Origin: an uncultured Acidobacteriota bacterium | Lineage (GTDB): Bacteria > Acidobacteriota > UBA6911 | Direction: 5' to 3' | Assembly: GCA_963843575.1 (NCBI GenBank) | Contig: CAWJKZ010000019.1 | Span: 32,001-96,000, forward strand | DNA: 64,000 nt | Shown: piece by piece, positions 1 through 14,488 of the stretch | Position numbering within the stretch: position 1 is the first letter of the stretch | Layout: the number at the start of each line of letters is the position of its first letter | Made by a program: the position numbers and the translations under genes | The notes under the pieces: generated by a model | Databases searched by the model: none | What the model saw: only the letters and a program-made list of their open reading frames with translations | Told to the model about the DNA's origin: nothing

Positions 1-720
1 CTCGACGCGCCGCCCGCCGCGCACCGAGACGTTGACGTCCTGTCGTGAAGCGCCGAGGCCGACGCGGACGTGCTCGGTCGAACGGCAGACCCGCCCGACG
101 AGCAGTATGGCTTCCTCGACTTCCTCCGGCGTTCGCAGGTCGGGGCCGGTCACGGTCTCGATCAGGGGCATCCCCAGGCGGTCGGTGCGCCACACGATGA
201 GGTGCCCCTGGTCGGAGACCTCGCGGCAGGAATCCTCCTCCACGCTTACCTGGGTGACCGAGAGGTCGCGGCCCCGGAAGGGAAGCCTGCCGTTGACCCC
301 GACGATGGCGGTGCGCTGAAAACCGGTCGGGATCGAGCCGTCGAGGTACTGTTTGCGGGCGATGTGCACCTCGTCGACGATGTCGCAACCGAGCATGAGG
401 CACTGCTCGATGGCGATGTCGACGGCCTCCTGGTTCACGAGAAAAGGCGGCGTGTCGTCCATTTCGTACGTGCAGACGTTCGACTCGTGCAGGAGGTAGA
501 TGATGTTCTTCCGGGTCTTGAACTCCATCAGGGCGGTGCCGTCGTACTCCCCCAGCTCCGAGAGCGTGGGGCGCATGTGGCGCAGCACCGCGCCGTCGTG
601 CGTCTCCGTGTACATCCCGGCCGGGCAGCGGCAGAACATCTTCGTCGCCGTCAGGAGCTGCTGGTGCACCTCCAGCCCCGCCATCAGCCCGACTTCCGCG
701 TAGTCGATCGAGGAGTGCAA
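1..720 (-). CDS. gatE: Glu-tRNA(Gln) amidotransferase subunit GatE (archaeal-type), N-terminal part; runs off the window edge
   Basis: Not in the ORF track because it has no stop inside the window. Manual translation from TTG at 720 (GGAGG about 8 nt upstream): MHSSIDYAEVGLMAGLEVHQQLLTATKMFCRCP...VLRHMRPTLSELGEYDGTALMEF...CTYEMDDTPPFLVNQEAVDIAIEQ...DIVDEVHIARKQYLDGSIPTGFQRTAIVG...SVEEDSCREVSDQG...RTDRLGMPLIETVTGPD. The RPTxSELGExD, RKxxxDGSxxxGFQRT and DRLGxPLxE motifs are GatE-type. The GatB PNTxxCPxCLG motif is absent. Confidence 0.85.
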   Translation of the reverse strand, partial: MHSSIDYAEVGLMAGLEVHQQLLTATKMFCRCPAGMYTETHDGAVLRHMRPTLSELGEYDGTALMEFKTRKNIIYLLHESNVCTYEMDDTPPFLVNQEAVDIAIEQCLMLGCDIVDEVHIARKQYLDGSIPTGFQRTAIVGVNGRLPFRGRDLSVTQVSVEEDSCREVSDQGHLIVWRTDRLGMPLIETVTGPDLRTPEEVEEAILLVGRVCRSTEHVRVGLGASRQDVNVSVRGGRRVE

Positions 721-774
721 TTCGGTGCCCTCCGGCGCCCCCGGCAGCGGCGCGTGCAAGACATGGATGCTATC

Positions 775-838
775 AGACGGAAGGCAAAAGACGGAAGCCG
801 GAAGACGGAAGCCGGAAGACGAAGGCGGAAGACAGAAG
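775..838. repeat. Degenerate heptamer tandem run (AGACGGA/AGCCGGA)
   Basis: About 9 units, agacgga-aggcaaa-agacgga-agccgga-agacgga-agccgga-agacga-aggcgga-agacaga, between the divergent gatE and TIM-barrel genes. Confidence 0.8.
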
Positions 839-890
839 GGGGATATAATGGCGGCGCAGCCAAACGGTATCAGGATCGATGGGAGGGACA

Positions 891-1820
891 ATGAGACGTC
901 GTGAATTCTTGACCCGCGTGGGCGCGGGTGCTGCAACGGTGGTTATGGCCAATGCCGGCGTCGAGGACGGCGCGGCGCAGGGCGCGGCCGGTGACAAGCG
1001 GAGCCGCATCGCCGTGTCGACCTGGAGCCTGCACAACTATTTCGAGTCGACCCGCGAGAGCGAATTCAAGCTCCCGGGCCGCATGATTTCGCTGCTCGAA
1101 TTCCCGGAGATGATCGCCGACCGCTACAAGGTCCACAACATCGAGGCGTGCGTGCCGCACTTCGCCTCGGCTGAGCCGGGCTACCTGAAGGAGTTCAAGG
1201 CTCGCCTCGCGAAAGCGCGCACGCAGCTGGTGAACATGCCGGTCGACATCGACGAGATCTCGACCGAGGGGGGCTTGTCGGATCCCGACGAGAGGATCCG
1301 CGGCAACGCGGTCAAGGGCTCGAAGAAGTGGATCGACGTCGCGGCCGTTGTGGGCTCGAAGGCCGTCCGGTGCGATCCGGGGAAGTTCGACCCGAAGAAG
1401 CCCGGCCCGACCGTGACCTCCTACCGGCAGCTCTCGGAGTACGGACGGTCCAAGGGCGTGCACGTCATCATCGAGAATCACGGCGGGGTGGGGTCGGAGC
1501 ACCCCGAGGACCTCGTCCAGCTGTTTACCGCCGTGGGCGGCGCGCACGTCGGTGCGCTCCCCGATTTCTTCAACTTCGCCAACGAGACCGTCCGGATGAA
1601 AGGGCTCGAAATGCTGTTCCCCTACGCGCGGGTCGTGTGCCACGCCAAGGGGATGGAATTCGACGCGGCGGGTCAGGAGAAACAGTACAACTTCGGCAAG
1701 TGCATGGAGATTGCCAAGAAGGCGGGATTCAAGGGGATCTACTCGATCGAGTACGAAGGCCCCGGGGACCCTTACGACGGCTGCCAGAAGGTGCTGAACA
1801 ACCTGCTGAAGTACCTCTGA
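891..1820 (+). CDS. Sugar phosphate isomerase/epimerase (AP endonuclease 2 / xylose isomerase-like TIM barrel), Tat-exported
   Basis: MRRREFL twin-arginine leader; IENHGG, LPDFFNF, HAK and YSIEYEG metal-binding motifs; GGAGG before the ATG at 891. Confidence 0.85.
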   Translation: MRRREFLTRVGAGAATVVMANAGVEDGAAQGAAGDKRSRIAVSTWSLHNYFESTRESEFKLPGRMISLLEFPEMIADRYKVHNIEACVPHFASAEPGYLKEFKARLAKARTQLVNMPVDIDEISTEGGLSDPDERIRGNAVKGSKKWIDVAAVVGSKAVRCDPGKFDPKKPGPTVTSYRQLSEYGRSKGVHVIIENHGGVGSEHPEDLVQLFTAVGGAHVGALPDFFNFANETVRMKGLEMLFPYARVVCHAKGMEFDAAGQEKQYNFGKCMEIAKKAGFKGIYSIEYEGPGDPYDGCQKVLNNLLKYL

Positions 1821-12843: not shown

Positions 12844-12924
12844 TGGAGTGCGGCGCCTCGGCGCCGCTTTTACGTACGTCACGCCTCCGGAATGCCCGGC
12901 GCCTCGGCGCCGCCGAAAAGCGGC
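12844..12924. repeat. REP-like palindrome, family B (TGGAGTGCGGCG..CGCCGCTTT), copy 1
   Basis: tggagtgcggcgcctcggcgccgcttt directly after the receptor stop, with a partial second copy cggcgcctcggcgccg..aaaagcggc; related to 34108-34238 and 44773-44893. Confidence 0.8.
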
Positions 12925-13036
12925 CCGTTTTTGCTGAGACCGAGAGCCCGCTTCGAGTTAGTCTCTAGGGTAAGAACTCGACGAATTTCCAAGCCTATCA
13001 AGCAAGAAGCAAGCCAGACAACTGTGAGGGTCACCT

Positions 13037-13065
13037 CGGCTTCCGGCTTCCCGCTTCCTGCTTCC
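13037..13065. repeat. Heptamer run (CGGCTTC)n, the reverse complement of the GGAAGCC-type unit
   Basis: cggcttc-cggcttc-ccgcttc-ctgcttc just upstream of the kinase start. Confidence 0.65.
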
Positions 13066-13075
13066 GTGGGTTAGT

Positions 13076-14488
13076 ATGGCCGTCATGATCGGGCGAACAC
13101 TCAAGCATTACGCCGTCGAGGAGTTGCTCGGGAAGGGGGGGATGGGAACCGTTTATCGGGCGCGCGACACGCGTCTCCAGCGCTCCGTAGCGCTCAAGGT
13201 GCTGTCGACGGAACTGACCTCCGACCCCGAGCGCCGCCGCCGGTTTCTGCAGGAAGCGCGGGCTGCCGCCGCGATCAACCATCCGGCCGTCGCCCAAGTC
13301 TACGACGTCGACGACGTCGACGGGGTCACGTTTATCGCTATGGAGTTGGTCGAAGGGGAGACGGTGCGCCAACTTGTCAACCAGCGTGATCTCGACGTGA
13401 TGGCCGCCCTCGAGATTGCGGTGCAGGTGGGCGAGGGGCTAGCCCGGGCCCACGAACTCGGGATCGTGCACCGCGACATCAAGTCCGAGAACATCATGGT
13501 GACCCGCGACGGGCACGCCAAGATACTCGACTTTGGCCTGGCCAAGCTCGACCCCCTCCGCAGCCACGAGGCCGCCGCCACCGGGACCGGCGAGGAGCAC
13601 ATCTCCCAGATCGCCACCATGGCGGAGACCAAACCGGGCATGGTCGTGGGCACCGTTGCCTACATGAGCCCGGAGCAGGCCCGCGGCCGGCAGGTGGACT
13701 ATCGCAGCGACATCTTTTCTCTCGGGGTGACGCTCTACGAGATGGCGACGGGCAAGCTGCCGTTCCGCGGCGACAGCCCGCTGGACACCATGCACGCGAT
13801 CGCGTTCGAGGAGACACGACCAGTCACGGTGCTGCGCCAGGACCTCCCCGGGGGCCTGCAGCGCATCATTTCGCGCTGTCTGCGCAAGCGCCCCGAGGAT
13901 CGCTACCCCGACACACACAGCCTGGTTTCGGACCTGCGGAACCTGCGCAAAGACATGGATTCCGGCGTGAGCCGCGCCGTGCCCTGGGGCGAGCGCCTGC
14001 GGCAGGGCGTGGACTCCATGCGAGGCGCCCGCTGGTGGAAGAGCGGCCGGGTCCTCGCGGCGACGGCCGGCACGGCCCTCCTTGTTGTGCTCCTGGTGGT
14101 GAGCCGCTATTTCAACCTCACCCCGGTCGTCGTGTTGATCGTCTTGGGATTGTGGTTCTTCCAGCGCTATCGGGTGCGTGGGCCGAAGCTGATGAGAAAG
14201 TTCGCCGCGAAGCTGGCGCGCTTGCCCGAGGTGCGGGTGGTCGCGTTCCGGCAGGACCTGGCCACGGTCGTCGTGGACCGCATGCAGGCGAAGGTGTACC
14301 TGCGGGCAGCCTCCCTGATGGAGGCGGTGAACGGGAAATACTTCCACGGCCGCCCGATCCGGTTGTCGGTGCGCGACGACCTCACCCCGGAAGAGTTCCG
14401 GCGCATGCTTCAGGAGGGCGGCATCCTTTATCTGCGCGACGACGTTTTCGAACCCGCGCCCACAAGCCACGACACCGGCCCGCGCTGA
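13076..14488 (+). CDS. Hanks-type Ser/Thr protein kinase with two transmembrane helices and a small C-terminal domain
   Basis: LGKGGMG, VALK, HRDIKSEN, DFGLAK and YMSPEQ motifs, followed by two hydrophobic stretches. Confidence 0.93.
   Translation: MAVMIGRTLKHYAVEELLGKGGMGTVYRARDTRLQRSVALKVLSTELTSDPERRRRFLQEARAAAAINHPAVAQVYDVDDVDGVTFIAMELVEGETVRQLVNQRDLDVMAALEIAVQVGEGLARAHELGIVHRDIKSENIMVTRDGHAKILDFGLAKLDPLRSHEAAATGTGEEHISQIATMAETKPGMVVGTVAYMSPEQARGRQVDYRSDIFSLGVTLYEMATGKLPFRGDSPLDTMHAIAFEETRPVTVLRQDLPGGLQRIISRCLRKRPEDRYPDTHSLVSDLRNLRKDMDSGVSRAVPWGERLRQGVDSMRGARWWKSGRVLAATAGTALLVVLLVVSRYFNLTPVVVLIVLGLWFFQRYRVRGPKLMRKFAAKLARLPEVRVVAFRQDLATVVVDRMQAKVYLRAASLMEAVNGKYFHGRPIRLSVRDDLTPEEFRRMLQEGGILYLRDDVFEPAPTSHDTGPR

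What the first reader, a model, noticed from the sequence alone, without database searches (positions are those of the whole stretch)
1..720. Archaeal-type GatE amidotransferase subunit in a bacterial chromosome, absent from the ORF track
Seen: an open minus-strand frame from TTG 720 to the window edge with GLEVHQQL, RPTLSELGEYD, RKQYLDGSIPTGFQRT, EED and DRLGMPLIE. Known: bacteria make Gln-tRNA(Gln) with GatCAB or GlnRS, while GatDE is described as the archaeal Glu-tRNA(Gln)-specific enzyme. These motifs match GatE rather than GatB. Inference: this Gram-negative bacterium carries a GatDE-type transamidation route or a repurposed GatE, with gatD probably just left of the window. GC-rich codon usage like its neighbours suggests long residence rather than contamination.
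Basis: partly seen in the sequence, partly recalled or inferred. Interest (0 to 1): 0.85.

Follow-up and report, generated by a model that had tools for sequence, protein, structure and literature searches.

The report
Bacterial gatE-gatD amidotransferase operon
The open frame at the window's left edge is the start of a real, intact gatE gene followed by gatD in an acidobacterium, an enzyme that reviews call archaea-only but that many bacterial genomes carry, here beside the enzymes that should make it unnecessary.

Summary
Window 1-720 (-) encodes the first 240 residues of a 658-aa GatE. The gene continues left of the window and overlaps a 468-aa gatD. Both proteins pass NCBIfam's GatE and GatD equivalog cut-offs; GatB models fail. 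The Mg-site residues, the GatD catalytic motifs and a confident fold all match archaeal GatDE.

It is not contamination. The contig is 529 kb, a same-genus genome is collinear across the gene start, GC3 matches the neighbours, and dN/dS is about 0.1.

It is not unique. GatE passes the cut-off in 11 of 61 relatives and 38 of 201 sampled genomes of the phylum. The 80 best of 595 confirmed hits in genome contigs are all bacterial MAGs. NCBI and JGI already name these proteins GatE.

In my trees the bacterial proteins form one clade next to Heimdallarchaeota-type GatE, but a position outside all archaea is not rejected (AU p = 0.13).

This genome also has GlnRS, AsnRS, GatA and GatB, and its tRNA-Gln genes carry U1-A72. 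GatDE is therefore not the only route to Gln-tRNA(Gln), and its role in bacteria is open.

Interest is moderate: the gene is annotated in databases, yet reviews up to 2022 call GatDE archaea-only.

The parts
1..720 (-). 5' part of gatE, residues 1-240 of 658: cradle/catalytic domain of the kinase-transamidase subunit. The gene continues left of the window to G000:C19:30744. gatD follows at G000:C19:29366-30772 and overlaps gatE by 29 nt.
   Evidence: NCBIfam GatE equivalogs are passed by the full-length protein and GatB models are not. PDB 1zq1_C 300 bits, 2d6f_C 285 bits. The model matches GatE chains at TMt 0.82-0.83.
728..733 (-). Shine-Dalgarno-like GGAGGG, 7 nt upstream of the TTG start at 720
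   Evidence: Read directly from the sequence. Function is inferred.
664..666 (-). Codon for His19, aligned with Mg-binding His15 of M. thermautotrophicus GatE
   Evidence: Alignment to 2d6f_C, positions computed. The residue's role is taken from passages of PMC2330236.
238..240 (-). Codon for Glu161, aligned with Mg-binding Glu157 of M. thermautotrophicus GatE
   Evidence: The column is invariant in 47 of 47 aligned GatE sequences.
157..159 (-). Codon for Glu188, aligned with Mg-binding Glu184 of M. thermautotrophicus GatE
   Evidence: The column is invariant in 47 of 47 aligned GatE sequences.

Best explanation
Window 1-720 (-) is the start of a genuine, intact gatE gene under purifying selection. 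Together with the overlapping downstream gatD it forms a gatE-gatD operon in a Vicinamibacterales-like acidobacterium. The operon belongs to a large bacterial clade of GatDE. By homology (inferred, not shown) the enzyme works like archaeal GatDE. GatD, an asparaginase-type amidase, releases ammonia from Gln or Asn. GatE binds the mischarged tRNA, phosphorylates the side-chain carboxyl of the attached Glu at a Mg site (His19/Glu161/Glu188) and amidates it. The most likely substrate (about 60%) is Glu-tRNA(Gln). In this cell that activity would run beside GlnRS and GatCAB, as a second route or as a clean-up of Glu-tRNA(Gln), not as the only source of Gln-tRNA(Gln). The operon has resided long in the lineage and is not contamination.
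For: Identity: GatE scores 468.7 and 390.8 bits, over the cut-offs of 456 and 319.55. GatD scores 493.1 and 492.3 bits, over 310 and 324. Solved archaeal GatE and GatD are the best PDB matches. The AlphaFold model (pLDDT 91.7, pTM 0.87) matches GatE chains at E 1e-43 to 1e-47 and TMt 0.82-0.83, ahead of GatB chains at TMt 0.57-0.77. The three Mg ligands are kept. GatD keeps GTGGTIAS, HGTDTM and RKMHSS, aligned with the same motifs of P. abyssi GatD.

Selection: dN/dS against the same-genus genome is 0.13 for gatE (dS 0.50) and 0.078 for gatD over 210 codons.

Operon: gatD lies downstream on the same strand in 82 of 90 loci. Of the other 8, 6 stop at a contig end, 1 has no gatD within 6 kb, and 1 has gatD on the opposite strand.

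Residence: the contig is 528,906 bases. G001 is collinear with L003 9261-13992 at about 86% identity. GC3 matches the neighbours. GatE passes the cut-off in 11 of 61 relatives, all in family f1, and in 38 of 201 sampled genomes of the phylum.
Against: GatDE is not needed for decoding here. GlnRS (764.7 bits), AsnRS (473.8), GatA (621.5) and GatB (351.6 when joined) are all present. Only one bacterial-type GluRS was found, and whether it mischarges tRNA(Gln) is unknown, so the substrate may not even exist in this cell. Both tRNA-Gln genes carry U1-A72, whereas archaeal GatDE is reported to read A1-U72 (passages of PMC9499178 and PMC2330236). The C-terminal tail has diverged: Pfam GatB_Yqey scores 16.5 bits against a cut-off of 27, and the archaeal A..G.LMG stretch before the RG(K/R) motif is not kept. 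No activity, expression or complex formation was shown.
Confidence: 0.75

Rival explanations
1. Repurposed GatDE. The bacterial clade keeps the kinase/amidase chemistry but acts on another substrate (Asp-tRNA(Asn), another aminoacyl-tRNA, or a non-tRNA carboxylate), or serves tRNA-dependent amide amino-acid synthesis rather than decoding.
For: Of 50 other GatDE-bearing bacterial genomes, 45 have GlnRS, 48 have AsnRS and only 24 have GatB. The enzyme is therefore usually kept where the direct routes exist. All 11 GatE holders among 61 relatives have GlnRS. The bacterial clade sits on a long stem (0.38) with 100% support. Its tail is diverged, and the tRNA-Gln first pair is U1-A72, not A1-U72. 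Two holders (G064, G097) showed neither GatB nor AsnRS.
Against: Every catalytic and tRNA-cradle motif is conserved with archaeal GatE. No other gene cluster was shared by more than 14 of the 90 loci, and the two that reached 14 lie antisense to gatE/gatD (for L003, over gatD), so context gives no hint of another pathway. GlnRS is common in these lineages anyway (49 of 61 relatives), so the co-occurrence is not shown to be enriched. G064 and G097 are MAGs of unknown completeness. AsnRS is present in 48 of 50, so an Asn role is not needed.
Confidence: 0.2
2. A neutral or decaying relic of an old transfer, with no present function.
For: It is redundant on paper and patchy within the family: 0 of 16 genomes of genus g2 have it.
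Against: Both frames are intact. dN/dS is 0.08-0.13 at dS 0.5. GatD is 64-93% identical across phyla. The catalytic residues are invariant.
Confidence: 0.03
3. A mis-called GatB, or archaeal contamination / a chimeric join at the gene start.
For: GatB and GatE are paralogues. One public record in the same cluster set is named 'gatB' (P0247). The genome is a bin with 3.28% estimated contamination.
Against: GatB models score at most 129.9 bits against a cut-off of 338. A separate gatB lies on contig C26. The contig is 529 kb with bacterial neighbours on both sides. G001 is collinear across the junction. 38 of 201 sampled genomes of the phylum hold it, including single-contig genomes G239 and G269.
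Confidence: 0.01

Closest known systems
Archaeal GatDE (Methanothermobacter thermautotrophicus, PDB 2D6F; Pyrococcus abyssi, PDB 1ZQ1)
   Same: Two subunits. The full-length equivalog HMM matches. The Mg ligands His/Glu/Glu and the GatD Thr / Thr-Asp / Lys motifs are kept. The fold matches at TMt 0.82-0.83. An insertion that GatB lacks is present.
   Different: The host is a bacterium that also has GlnRS, AsnRS and GatCAB. Its tRNA-Gln has U1-A72, not A1-U72. Identity to the solved GatE chains is only 32-34%. The tail and insertion domains are too diverged for Pfam GatB_Yqey and GAD to pass. The protein belongs to a separate, well-supported bacterial clade.
Heimdallarchaeota / Asgard-type GatE (P0046, P0389, P0399, P0400, P0404, P0410 and others, named by NCBI)
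   Same: Sister group of the bacterial clade in two IQ-TREE runs (SH-aLRT 98 and 99). P0046 shares the RKQYLDGSIP.GFQRT signature.
   Different: About 36-38% identical to the query. These proteins keep the canonical YqeY tail and GAD domain in precomputed Pfam. The nesting is not secure: holding all archaeal rows together costs 5.5 lnL, AU p = 0.132.
Bacterial GatCAB (GatB paralogue)
   Same: Same cradle-domain chemistry and the same reaction type. It reads U1-A72 tRNAs in bacteria (passages of PMC2811023). It is present in this genome.
   Different: GatB lacks the insertion domain and pairs with the amidase-family GatA plus GatC, not with an asparaginase-like GatD. The query fails all six GatB models.
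Type I L-asparaginase (for GatD)
   Same: The Asparaginase N and C domains and the catalytic motifs are present.
   Different: GatD has the extra GatD_N domain (50.7 bits) and scores 493 bits on the GatD models, over their cut-offs.

Membership tests
GatE (Glu-tRNA(Gln) amidotransferase subunit E) | Full-length match over the curated equivalog cut-offs, and better than GatB | tested here: met
   NF003107 468.7 bits (cut-off 456), residues 4-644 on profile 3-618/630. TIGR00134 390.8 bits (cut-off 319.55). Best GatB model 129.9 bits (cut-off 338).
GatE | Mg-binding His/Glu/Glu of the kinase site (His15, Glu157, Glu184 in M. thermautotrophicus) | tested here: met
   His19, Glu161 and Glu188 align with them. 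The residues' role comes from passages of PMC2330236. All three columns are invariant in the 47-row alignment.
GatE | AspRS-like insertion domain, absent from GatB | tested here: met
   Pfam GatB_N spans residues 13-470 on a 277-position profile, so there is a large insert. The model aligns over 527 columns with the 508-residue 1zq1_C chain at TMt 0.83, and AspRS chains appear as weak hits (1c0a_A, E 4.8e-3). Caveat: Pfam GAD (PF02938) itself was not reported at E <= 0.01.
GatE | [quoted passage not shown] | tested here: inconclusive
   A helical tail is predicted with confidence (helices 598-650). But GatB_Yqey scores 16.5 bits against a cut-off of 27, and the motif region reads DPRRVLRIAVGDAM, with only the following RG(R/K) kept. 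The motif is taken from passages of PMC2811023.
GatDE system | Partner GatD with an asparaginase-type active site, encoded alongside | tested here: met
   gatD overlaps the end of gatE. NF003217 493.1 bits (cut-off 310). The motifs aligned to 1zq1_A are kept. gatD is downstream in 82 of 90 loci.
GatDE system | Archaeal context: no GlnRS, so GatDE is the only route to Gln-tRNA(Gln); tRNA-Gln with A1-U72 | tested here: not met
   GlnRS 764.7 bits. GatA and GatB are present. Both tRNA-Gln genes have U1-A72. This concerns the role of the system, not the protein family.
GatDE system | ATP-dependent amidation of Glu-tRNA(Gln); an alpha2-beta2 complex | not testable with these tools

The most novel reading that the evidence does not exclude
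Bacterial GatDE is a distinct, old and horizontally mobile clade. It is present in about a fifth of the Acidobacteriota genomes sampled and in Ignavibacteriota, Bacteroidota, Planctomycetota, Myxococcota, Zixibacteria and others. It shares its closest ancestry with Heimdallarchaeota-type GatDE. It almost always coexists with GlnRS and AsnRS and, in half of the holders, is the only amidotransferase. It would then not be 'the archaeal route in a bacterium' but an enzyme with a role of its own: for example, clearing Glu-tRNA(Gln) made by a relaxed GluRS, or a conditional tRNA-dependent amide synthesis, with tRNA recognition re-tuned to U1-A72. The textbook label 'archaeal signature protein' would also be wrong.
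Probability: 0.3. Interest if true: 0.75.

Novelty: new member of a known kind. Interest (0 to 1): 0.55.

Why it matters
GatDE is presented as an archaeal signature enzyme. [quoted passage not shown] The data here show an intact gatE-gatD operon under purifying selection in this acidobacterium. They also show the same operon in hundreds of bacterial species genomes, usually alongside GlnRS and AsnRS. That turns a concrete question into an experiment: what is a Glu-tRNA(Gln) amidotransferase for in cells that charge tRNA(Gln) directly? It also adds a case of gene exchange between Asgard-like archaea and bacteria in a core translation function. For this particular window the finding is ordinary annotation: public pipelines already name the gene.

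Tried and rejected
Conserved neighbours: ORFs of 90 loci were clustered. No cluster other than gatE occurred in more than 14 loci, and the two 14-locus clusters lie antisense to gatE/gatD (for L003, over gatD). So only gatD is a conserved neighbour.

Read evidence for the junction and for expression: no run held more than 0.14 of the sampled words. Only short contigs were laid, and none bridges L003 12700-12900. An RNA-library run (X4) has an exact 151-nt piece at L003 10756-10906 and a 252-nt piece at 12870-13121. DNA can be present in such libraries, so I do not count this as expression or as habitat evidence.

GluRS discrimination: the best solved relative scores 584.6 bits (5tgt_A). I could not read from this whether the enzyme is discriminating, so I dropped the question.

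Promoter and terminator scan of window 600-1000 found nothing.

The Sheppard & Soll 2008 paper (PMC2366055) is not held, and supplementary files were not consulted; either may hold distribution tables that bear on the 'archaea-only' claim.

Literature on bacterial GatDE: searches found no paper whose listed title or abstract start deals with it. One search found 33 papers with 'GatDE' since 2013 and listed 31. This covers only the held library.

Claims whose tallies include the unpublished genome G046 (one genome with no GatE over the cut-off; GlnRS and AsnRS present): 0 of 24 outside f1, 49 of 61, 35 of 37, 38 of 201.

Full report
OBSERVATION. With open ends allowed, the minus strand of window 1..936 is one open frame that runs off the left edge. 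From the TTG at 720 it gives 240 residues without a stop. The ORF listing omits frames that run off the source unless asked, which is the likely reason the gene was 'absent from the ORF track'. A GGAGGG lies 7 nt upstream of TTG 720, and three homologues start with M at the aligned position. The public gene model (P0154, 671 aa) is 13 residues longer, so it starts 13 codons further up, which by the sequence is the TTG at window 759.

EXTENSION. The window is G000:C19:32001-96000, on a contig of 528,906 bases in a genome of 6.68 Mb in 27 contigs, 88.3% complete and 3.3% contaminated. In the 14 kb fetched around the edge (L003), gatE runs from 12720 to 10744 (658 aa, P0002). A 468-aa ORF at 10772-9366 on the same strand overlaps it by 29 nt.

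Downstream on the same strand lie an acyl-CoA dehydrogenase and a KS-AT-ACP polyketide / PUFA-synthase-like gene. Upstream, divergently, lie a xylose-isomerase-like TIM-barrel gene and a Gfo/Idh/MocA oxidoreductase.

WHAT IT IS. P0002 passes both NCBIfam GatE equivalogs: NF003107 at 468.7 bits (cut-off 456) and TIGR00134 at 390.8 bits (cut-off 319.55), aligned over profile positions 3-618 of 630. It fails all six GatB models, the best scoring 129.9 bits against a cut-off of 338. P0003 passes both GatD equivalogs at 493.1 and 492.3 bits, with cut-offs of 310 and 324. Pfam sees GatB_N interrupted by a large insert, and in GatD the Asparaginase, Asparaginase_C and GatD_N domains.

The best solved relatives are the archaeal GatE chains 1zq1_C (300 bits) and 2d6f_C (285 bits), and the GatD chains 1zq1_A (398 bits) and 2d6f_A (387 bits). 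His15, Glu157 and Glu184, the Mg ligands of the M. thermautotrophicus kinase site (passages of PMC2330236), align with His19, Glu161 and Glu188. These columns are invariant in a 47-row alignment of bacterial and archaeal GatE. GatD keeps GTGGTIAS, HGTDTM and RKMHSS, aligned with the same motifs of P. abyssi GatD.

An AlphaFold model built on that alignment is confident (pLDDT 91.7, pTM 0.87). Its best PDB matches are the GatE chains (E 5.7e-47 to 1.6e-43, TMt 0.82-0.83), ahead of GatB chains (TMt 0.57-0.77). AspRS chains appear as weak hits, as expected for the GatE-specific insertion.

Two things are less canonical. Pfam GatB_Yqey is below threshold (16.5 bits against 27) and GAD is not reported. 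And the stretch that in archaeal GatE carries the GXXAXGX motif (passages of PMC2811023) is not conserved here, although the following RG(R/K) is.

NOT AN ARTEFACT. A same-genus genome (G001) is collinear with L003 9261-13992 at about 86% identity. That span runs from beyond gatD, through gatE, across window 720-890 and into the upstream gene. GC3 is 0.889 for gatE and 0.917 for gatD, against 0.866-0.887 for four neighbours. dN/dS against G001 is 0.13 for gatE (658 codons, dS 0.50) and 0.078 for gatD (210 codons). Against six other relatives it is 0.10-0.29 for gatE and 0.055-0.14 for gatD. The genome has a single GatE locus.

DISTRIBUTION. Among 61 genomes (G000 plus 60 relatives), GatE passes the cut-off in 11. 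All 11 are in family f1 (genera g1, g4, g5, g6, g7, g10). Three more g10 genomes hold fragments below the cut-off. GatE was found in 0 of 16 genomes of genus g2 and 0 of 24 genomes of the class outside f1. In an even sample of the phylum it passes in 38 of 201 genomes, 38 of 187 high-quality ones and 28 of 135 genera, including the single-contig genomes G239 and G269.

The best 80 are all titled as bacterial MAGs and are 43-82% identical. They cover Acidobacteriota of several classes, Myxococcota, Ignavibacteriota, Bacteroidota, Planctomycetota, KSB1, Aminicenantes and Eisenbacteria. I did not examine the remaining 515.

The protein database returned 8000 relatives at E <= 1e-20 (the cap). The top 120 are 73-100% identical, and JGI and NCBI name many of them GatE, for example '[Vicinamibacterales bacterium]'.

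The gatE-then-gatD order holds in 82 of 90 loci. Of the other 8, 6 end at a contig edge, 1 (L104) has no gatD within 6 kb, and 1 (L080) has it on the opposite strand. No other neighbour is conserved. In other genera, DNA similarity to G000 stops at the operon's ends. G004, a member of the same family, carries a GatE only 48% identical to the query, which groups with Ignavibacteriota-type sequences. The operon has therefore moved between bacteria.

PHYLOGENY. I built three trees rooted on acidobacterial GatB: FastTree with 188 rows, and IQ-TREE LG+C20 'quick' with 57 and 64 rows. In all three, every row from a bacterial record falls in one clade, with support of 95, 100 and 100 and a stem of 0.38.

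The rows outside that clade behave as archaeal. They score 472-660 bits on the two solved archaeal GatE chains, against 285-300 for the query and 344-356 for a basal bacterial-clade row. Their relatives are named by NCBI as Heimdall-, Thor-, Loki-, Bathy- and Verstraetearchaeota and Thermoprotei. The Atlas places P0046 among clusters that are 100% archaeal.

In both IQ-TREE runs the sister of the bacterial clade is the Heimdallarchaeota/Asgard-named group around P0046 (SH-aLRT 98 and 99). Basal bacterial-clade rows have relatives named Zixibacteria, Coatesbacteria, Hatepunaea and Bacteroidetes. Two rows labelled Thermoplasmata/Thermoplasmatota, one of them on a 5.16-Mb contig, sit inside the bacterial clade next to a Bacteroidetes row.

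Results against a firm reading are these. The trees are short searches without bootstraps. Many rows deviate in composition. The outgroup is a long branch from one class. And the AU test does not reject the tree that holds all 31 archaeal-like rows together (lnL 5.5 lower, p = 0.132). That grouping was named after the tree had been seen. So 'nested in archaea, next to Heimdallarchaeota' is the best tree, not an established result.

CONTEXT FOR FUNCTION. G000 encodes:
- GlnRS (764.7 bits), AsnRS (473.8 bits) and GatA (621.5 bits);
- a GatB on contig C26 that reads in three frames (351.6 bits joined);
- one bacterial-type GluRS and no archaeal-type one.

The gene next to gatB and the PUFA-synthase-like gene also lose frame, so assembly indels are the likely cause.

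ARAGORN finds 47 tRNAs. Both tRNA-Gln genes and tRNA-Asn have U1-A72, and no tRNA-Asp was found. Archaeal GatDE is reported to read A1-U72 and the D-loop (passages of PMC9499178 and PMC2330236).

All 11 GatE holders among the relatives have GlnRS. AsnRS passes in 35 of 37 relatives searched.

In 50 other GatDE-bearing bacterial genomes, chosen by me from the 80 loci for long contigs and spread, with completeness unknown:
- GatB was found in 24 (23 over the cut-off);
- GlnRS in 45 (44 over the cut-off);
- AsnRS in 48 (47 over the cut-off).

Of the 26 without GatB, 24 have GlnRS. G069 and G074 showed neither GlnRS nor GatB, and G064 and G097 showed neither GatB nor AsnRS; these may be gaps in the bins.

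One caveat applies. GlnRS is common in these lineages regardless of GatE (49 of 61 relatives). The co-occurrence therefore shows that GatDE does not compensate for a missing GlnRS. It does not show that the two are functionally linked.

MECHANISM. Shown: sequence, fold, catalytic residues, operon structure, purifying selection and vertical presence within the family. Inferred from archaeal GatDE (passages of PMC2330236): GatD releases ammonia from Gln or Asn, and GatE phosphorylates and then amidates Glu attached to tRNA(Gln). I put about 60% on Glu-tRNA(Gln) as the substrate. The route would be parallel or corrective, and recognition must accept U1-A72. I put about 20% on a changed substrate or role, and a few percent on no function.

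LITERATURE. PMC2811023 (abstract) states that GatDE 'occurs exclusively in archaea'. PMC2330236 (passage) calls it 'an archaeal signature protein'. [quoted passage not shown] Four searches found no paper in the held library that treats bacterial GatDE, judged from listings and abstract starts. Sheppard & Soll 2008 is not held. I recall no experimental paper on a bacterial GatDE, but that is recall, not a search result.

VERDICT. The gene is a new bacterial member of a known family that public pipelines already name, so the window itself is ordinary annotation. The wider pattern, a large bacterial GatDE clade living beside GlnRS and AsnRS, appears unremarked in the searchable literature and is experimentally approachable. 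Interest is 0.55.

Noticed in passing
window 775-843 (also window 13040, 44662, 44676, 45326): The intergenic region between gatE and the divergent TIM-barrel gene holds a tandem array of period 7/14 (AGACGGA x 9.3). A search of the genome with GGAAGACGGAAG at <= 1 mismatch gave 97 hits, of which about 45 read exactly GGAAGCCGGAAG. These often occur as pairs 14 nt apart and as inverted pairs 50-130 nt apart. This looks like a dispersed REP/MITE-like repeat family.
   Followed up: partly
G000:C26:828-2294 (outside the window; locus L004): gatB is read in three frames. The adjacent miaA-like ORF also loses its frame, and so does the last ACP repeat of the PUFA-synthase-like gene at L003 147-7169. 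Assembly indels are more likely than real pseudogenes, but a decaying gatB in a GatDE holder cannot be excluded.
   Followed up: partly
L003 147-9121 (G000:C19:20147-29121, left of the window): Directly downstream of gatD lie an acyl-CoA dehydrogenase and a 2340-aa KS-AT-(ACP)n gene with about five near-identical ACP repeats, typical of PUFA / polyketide synthases. This neighbourhood is shared with the same-genus genome only as far as was checked.
   Followed up: no
whole genome G000: ARAGORN finds 47 tRNAs, including tRNA-SeC, but no tRNA-Asp. The genome is 88% complete, so this is probably a gap.
   Followed up: no
L024 (G004:C14:18022-22890): A member of the window's own family carries a GatE only 48% identical to the query. 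It clusters with Ignavibacteriota/Aminicenantes-type GatE, which suggests a second, independent acquisition within the family.
   Followed up: partly
proteins P0299 and P0348: Two GatE proteins that NCBI labels Thermoplasmata/Thermoplasmatota archaeon fall inside the bacterial clade beside a Bacteroidetes-labelled row. P0299 comes from a 5.16-Mb contig, unusually large for that label. This could be mislabelled bins or a transfer back to archaea.
   Followed up: no
genomes G064, G097, G069, G074: In four GatDE-bearing MAGs no GatB was found. Two of them also showed no AsnRS (G064, G097), and the other two showed no GlnRS (G069, G074). If these are not assembly gaps, GatDE would be essential there.
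   Followed up: no
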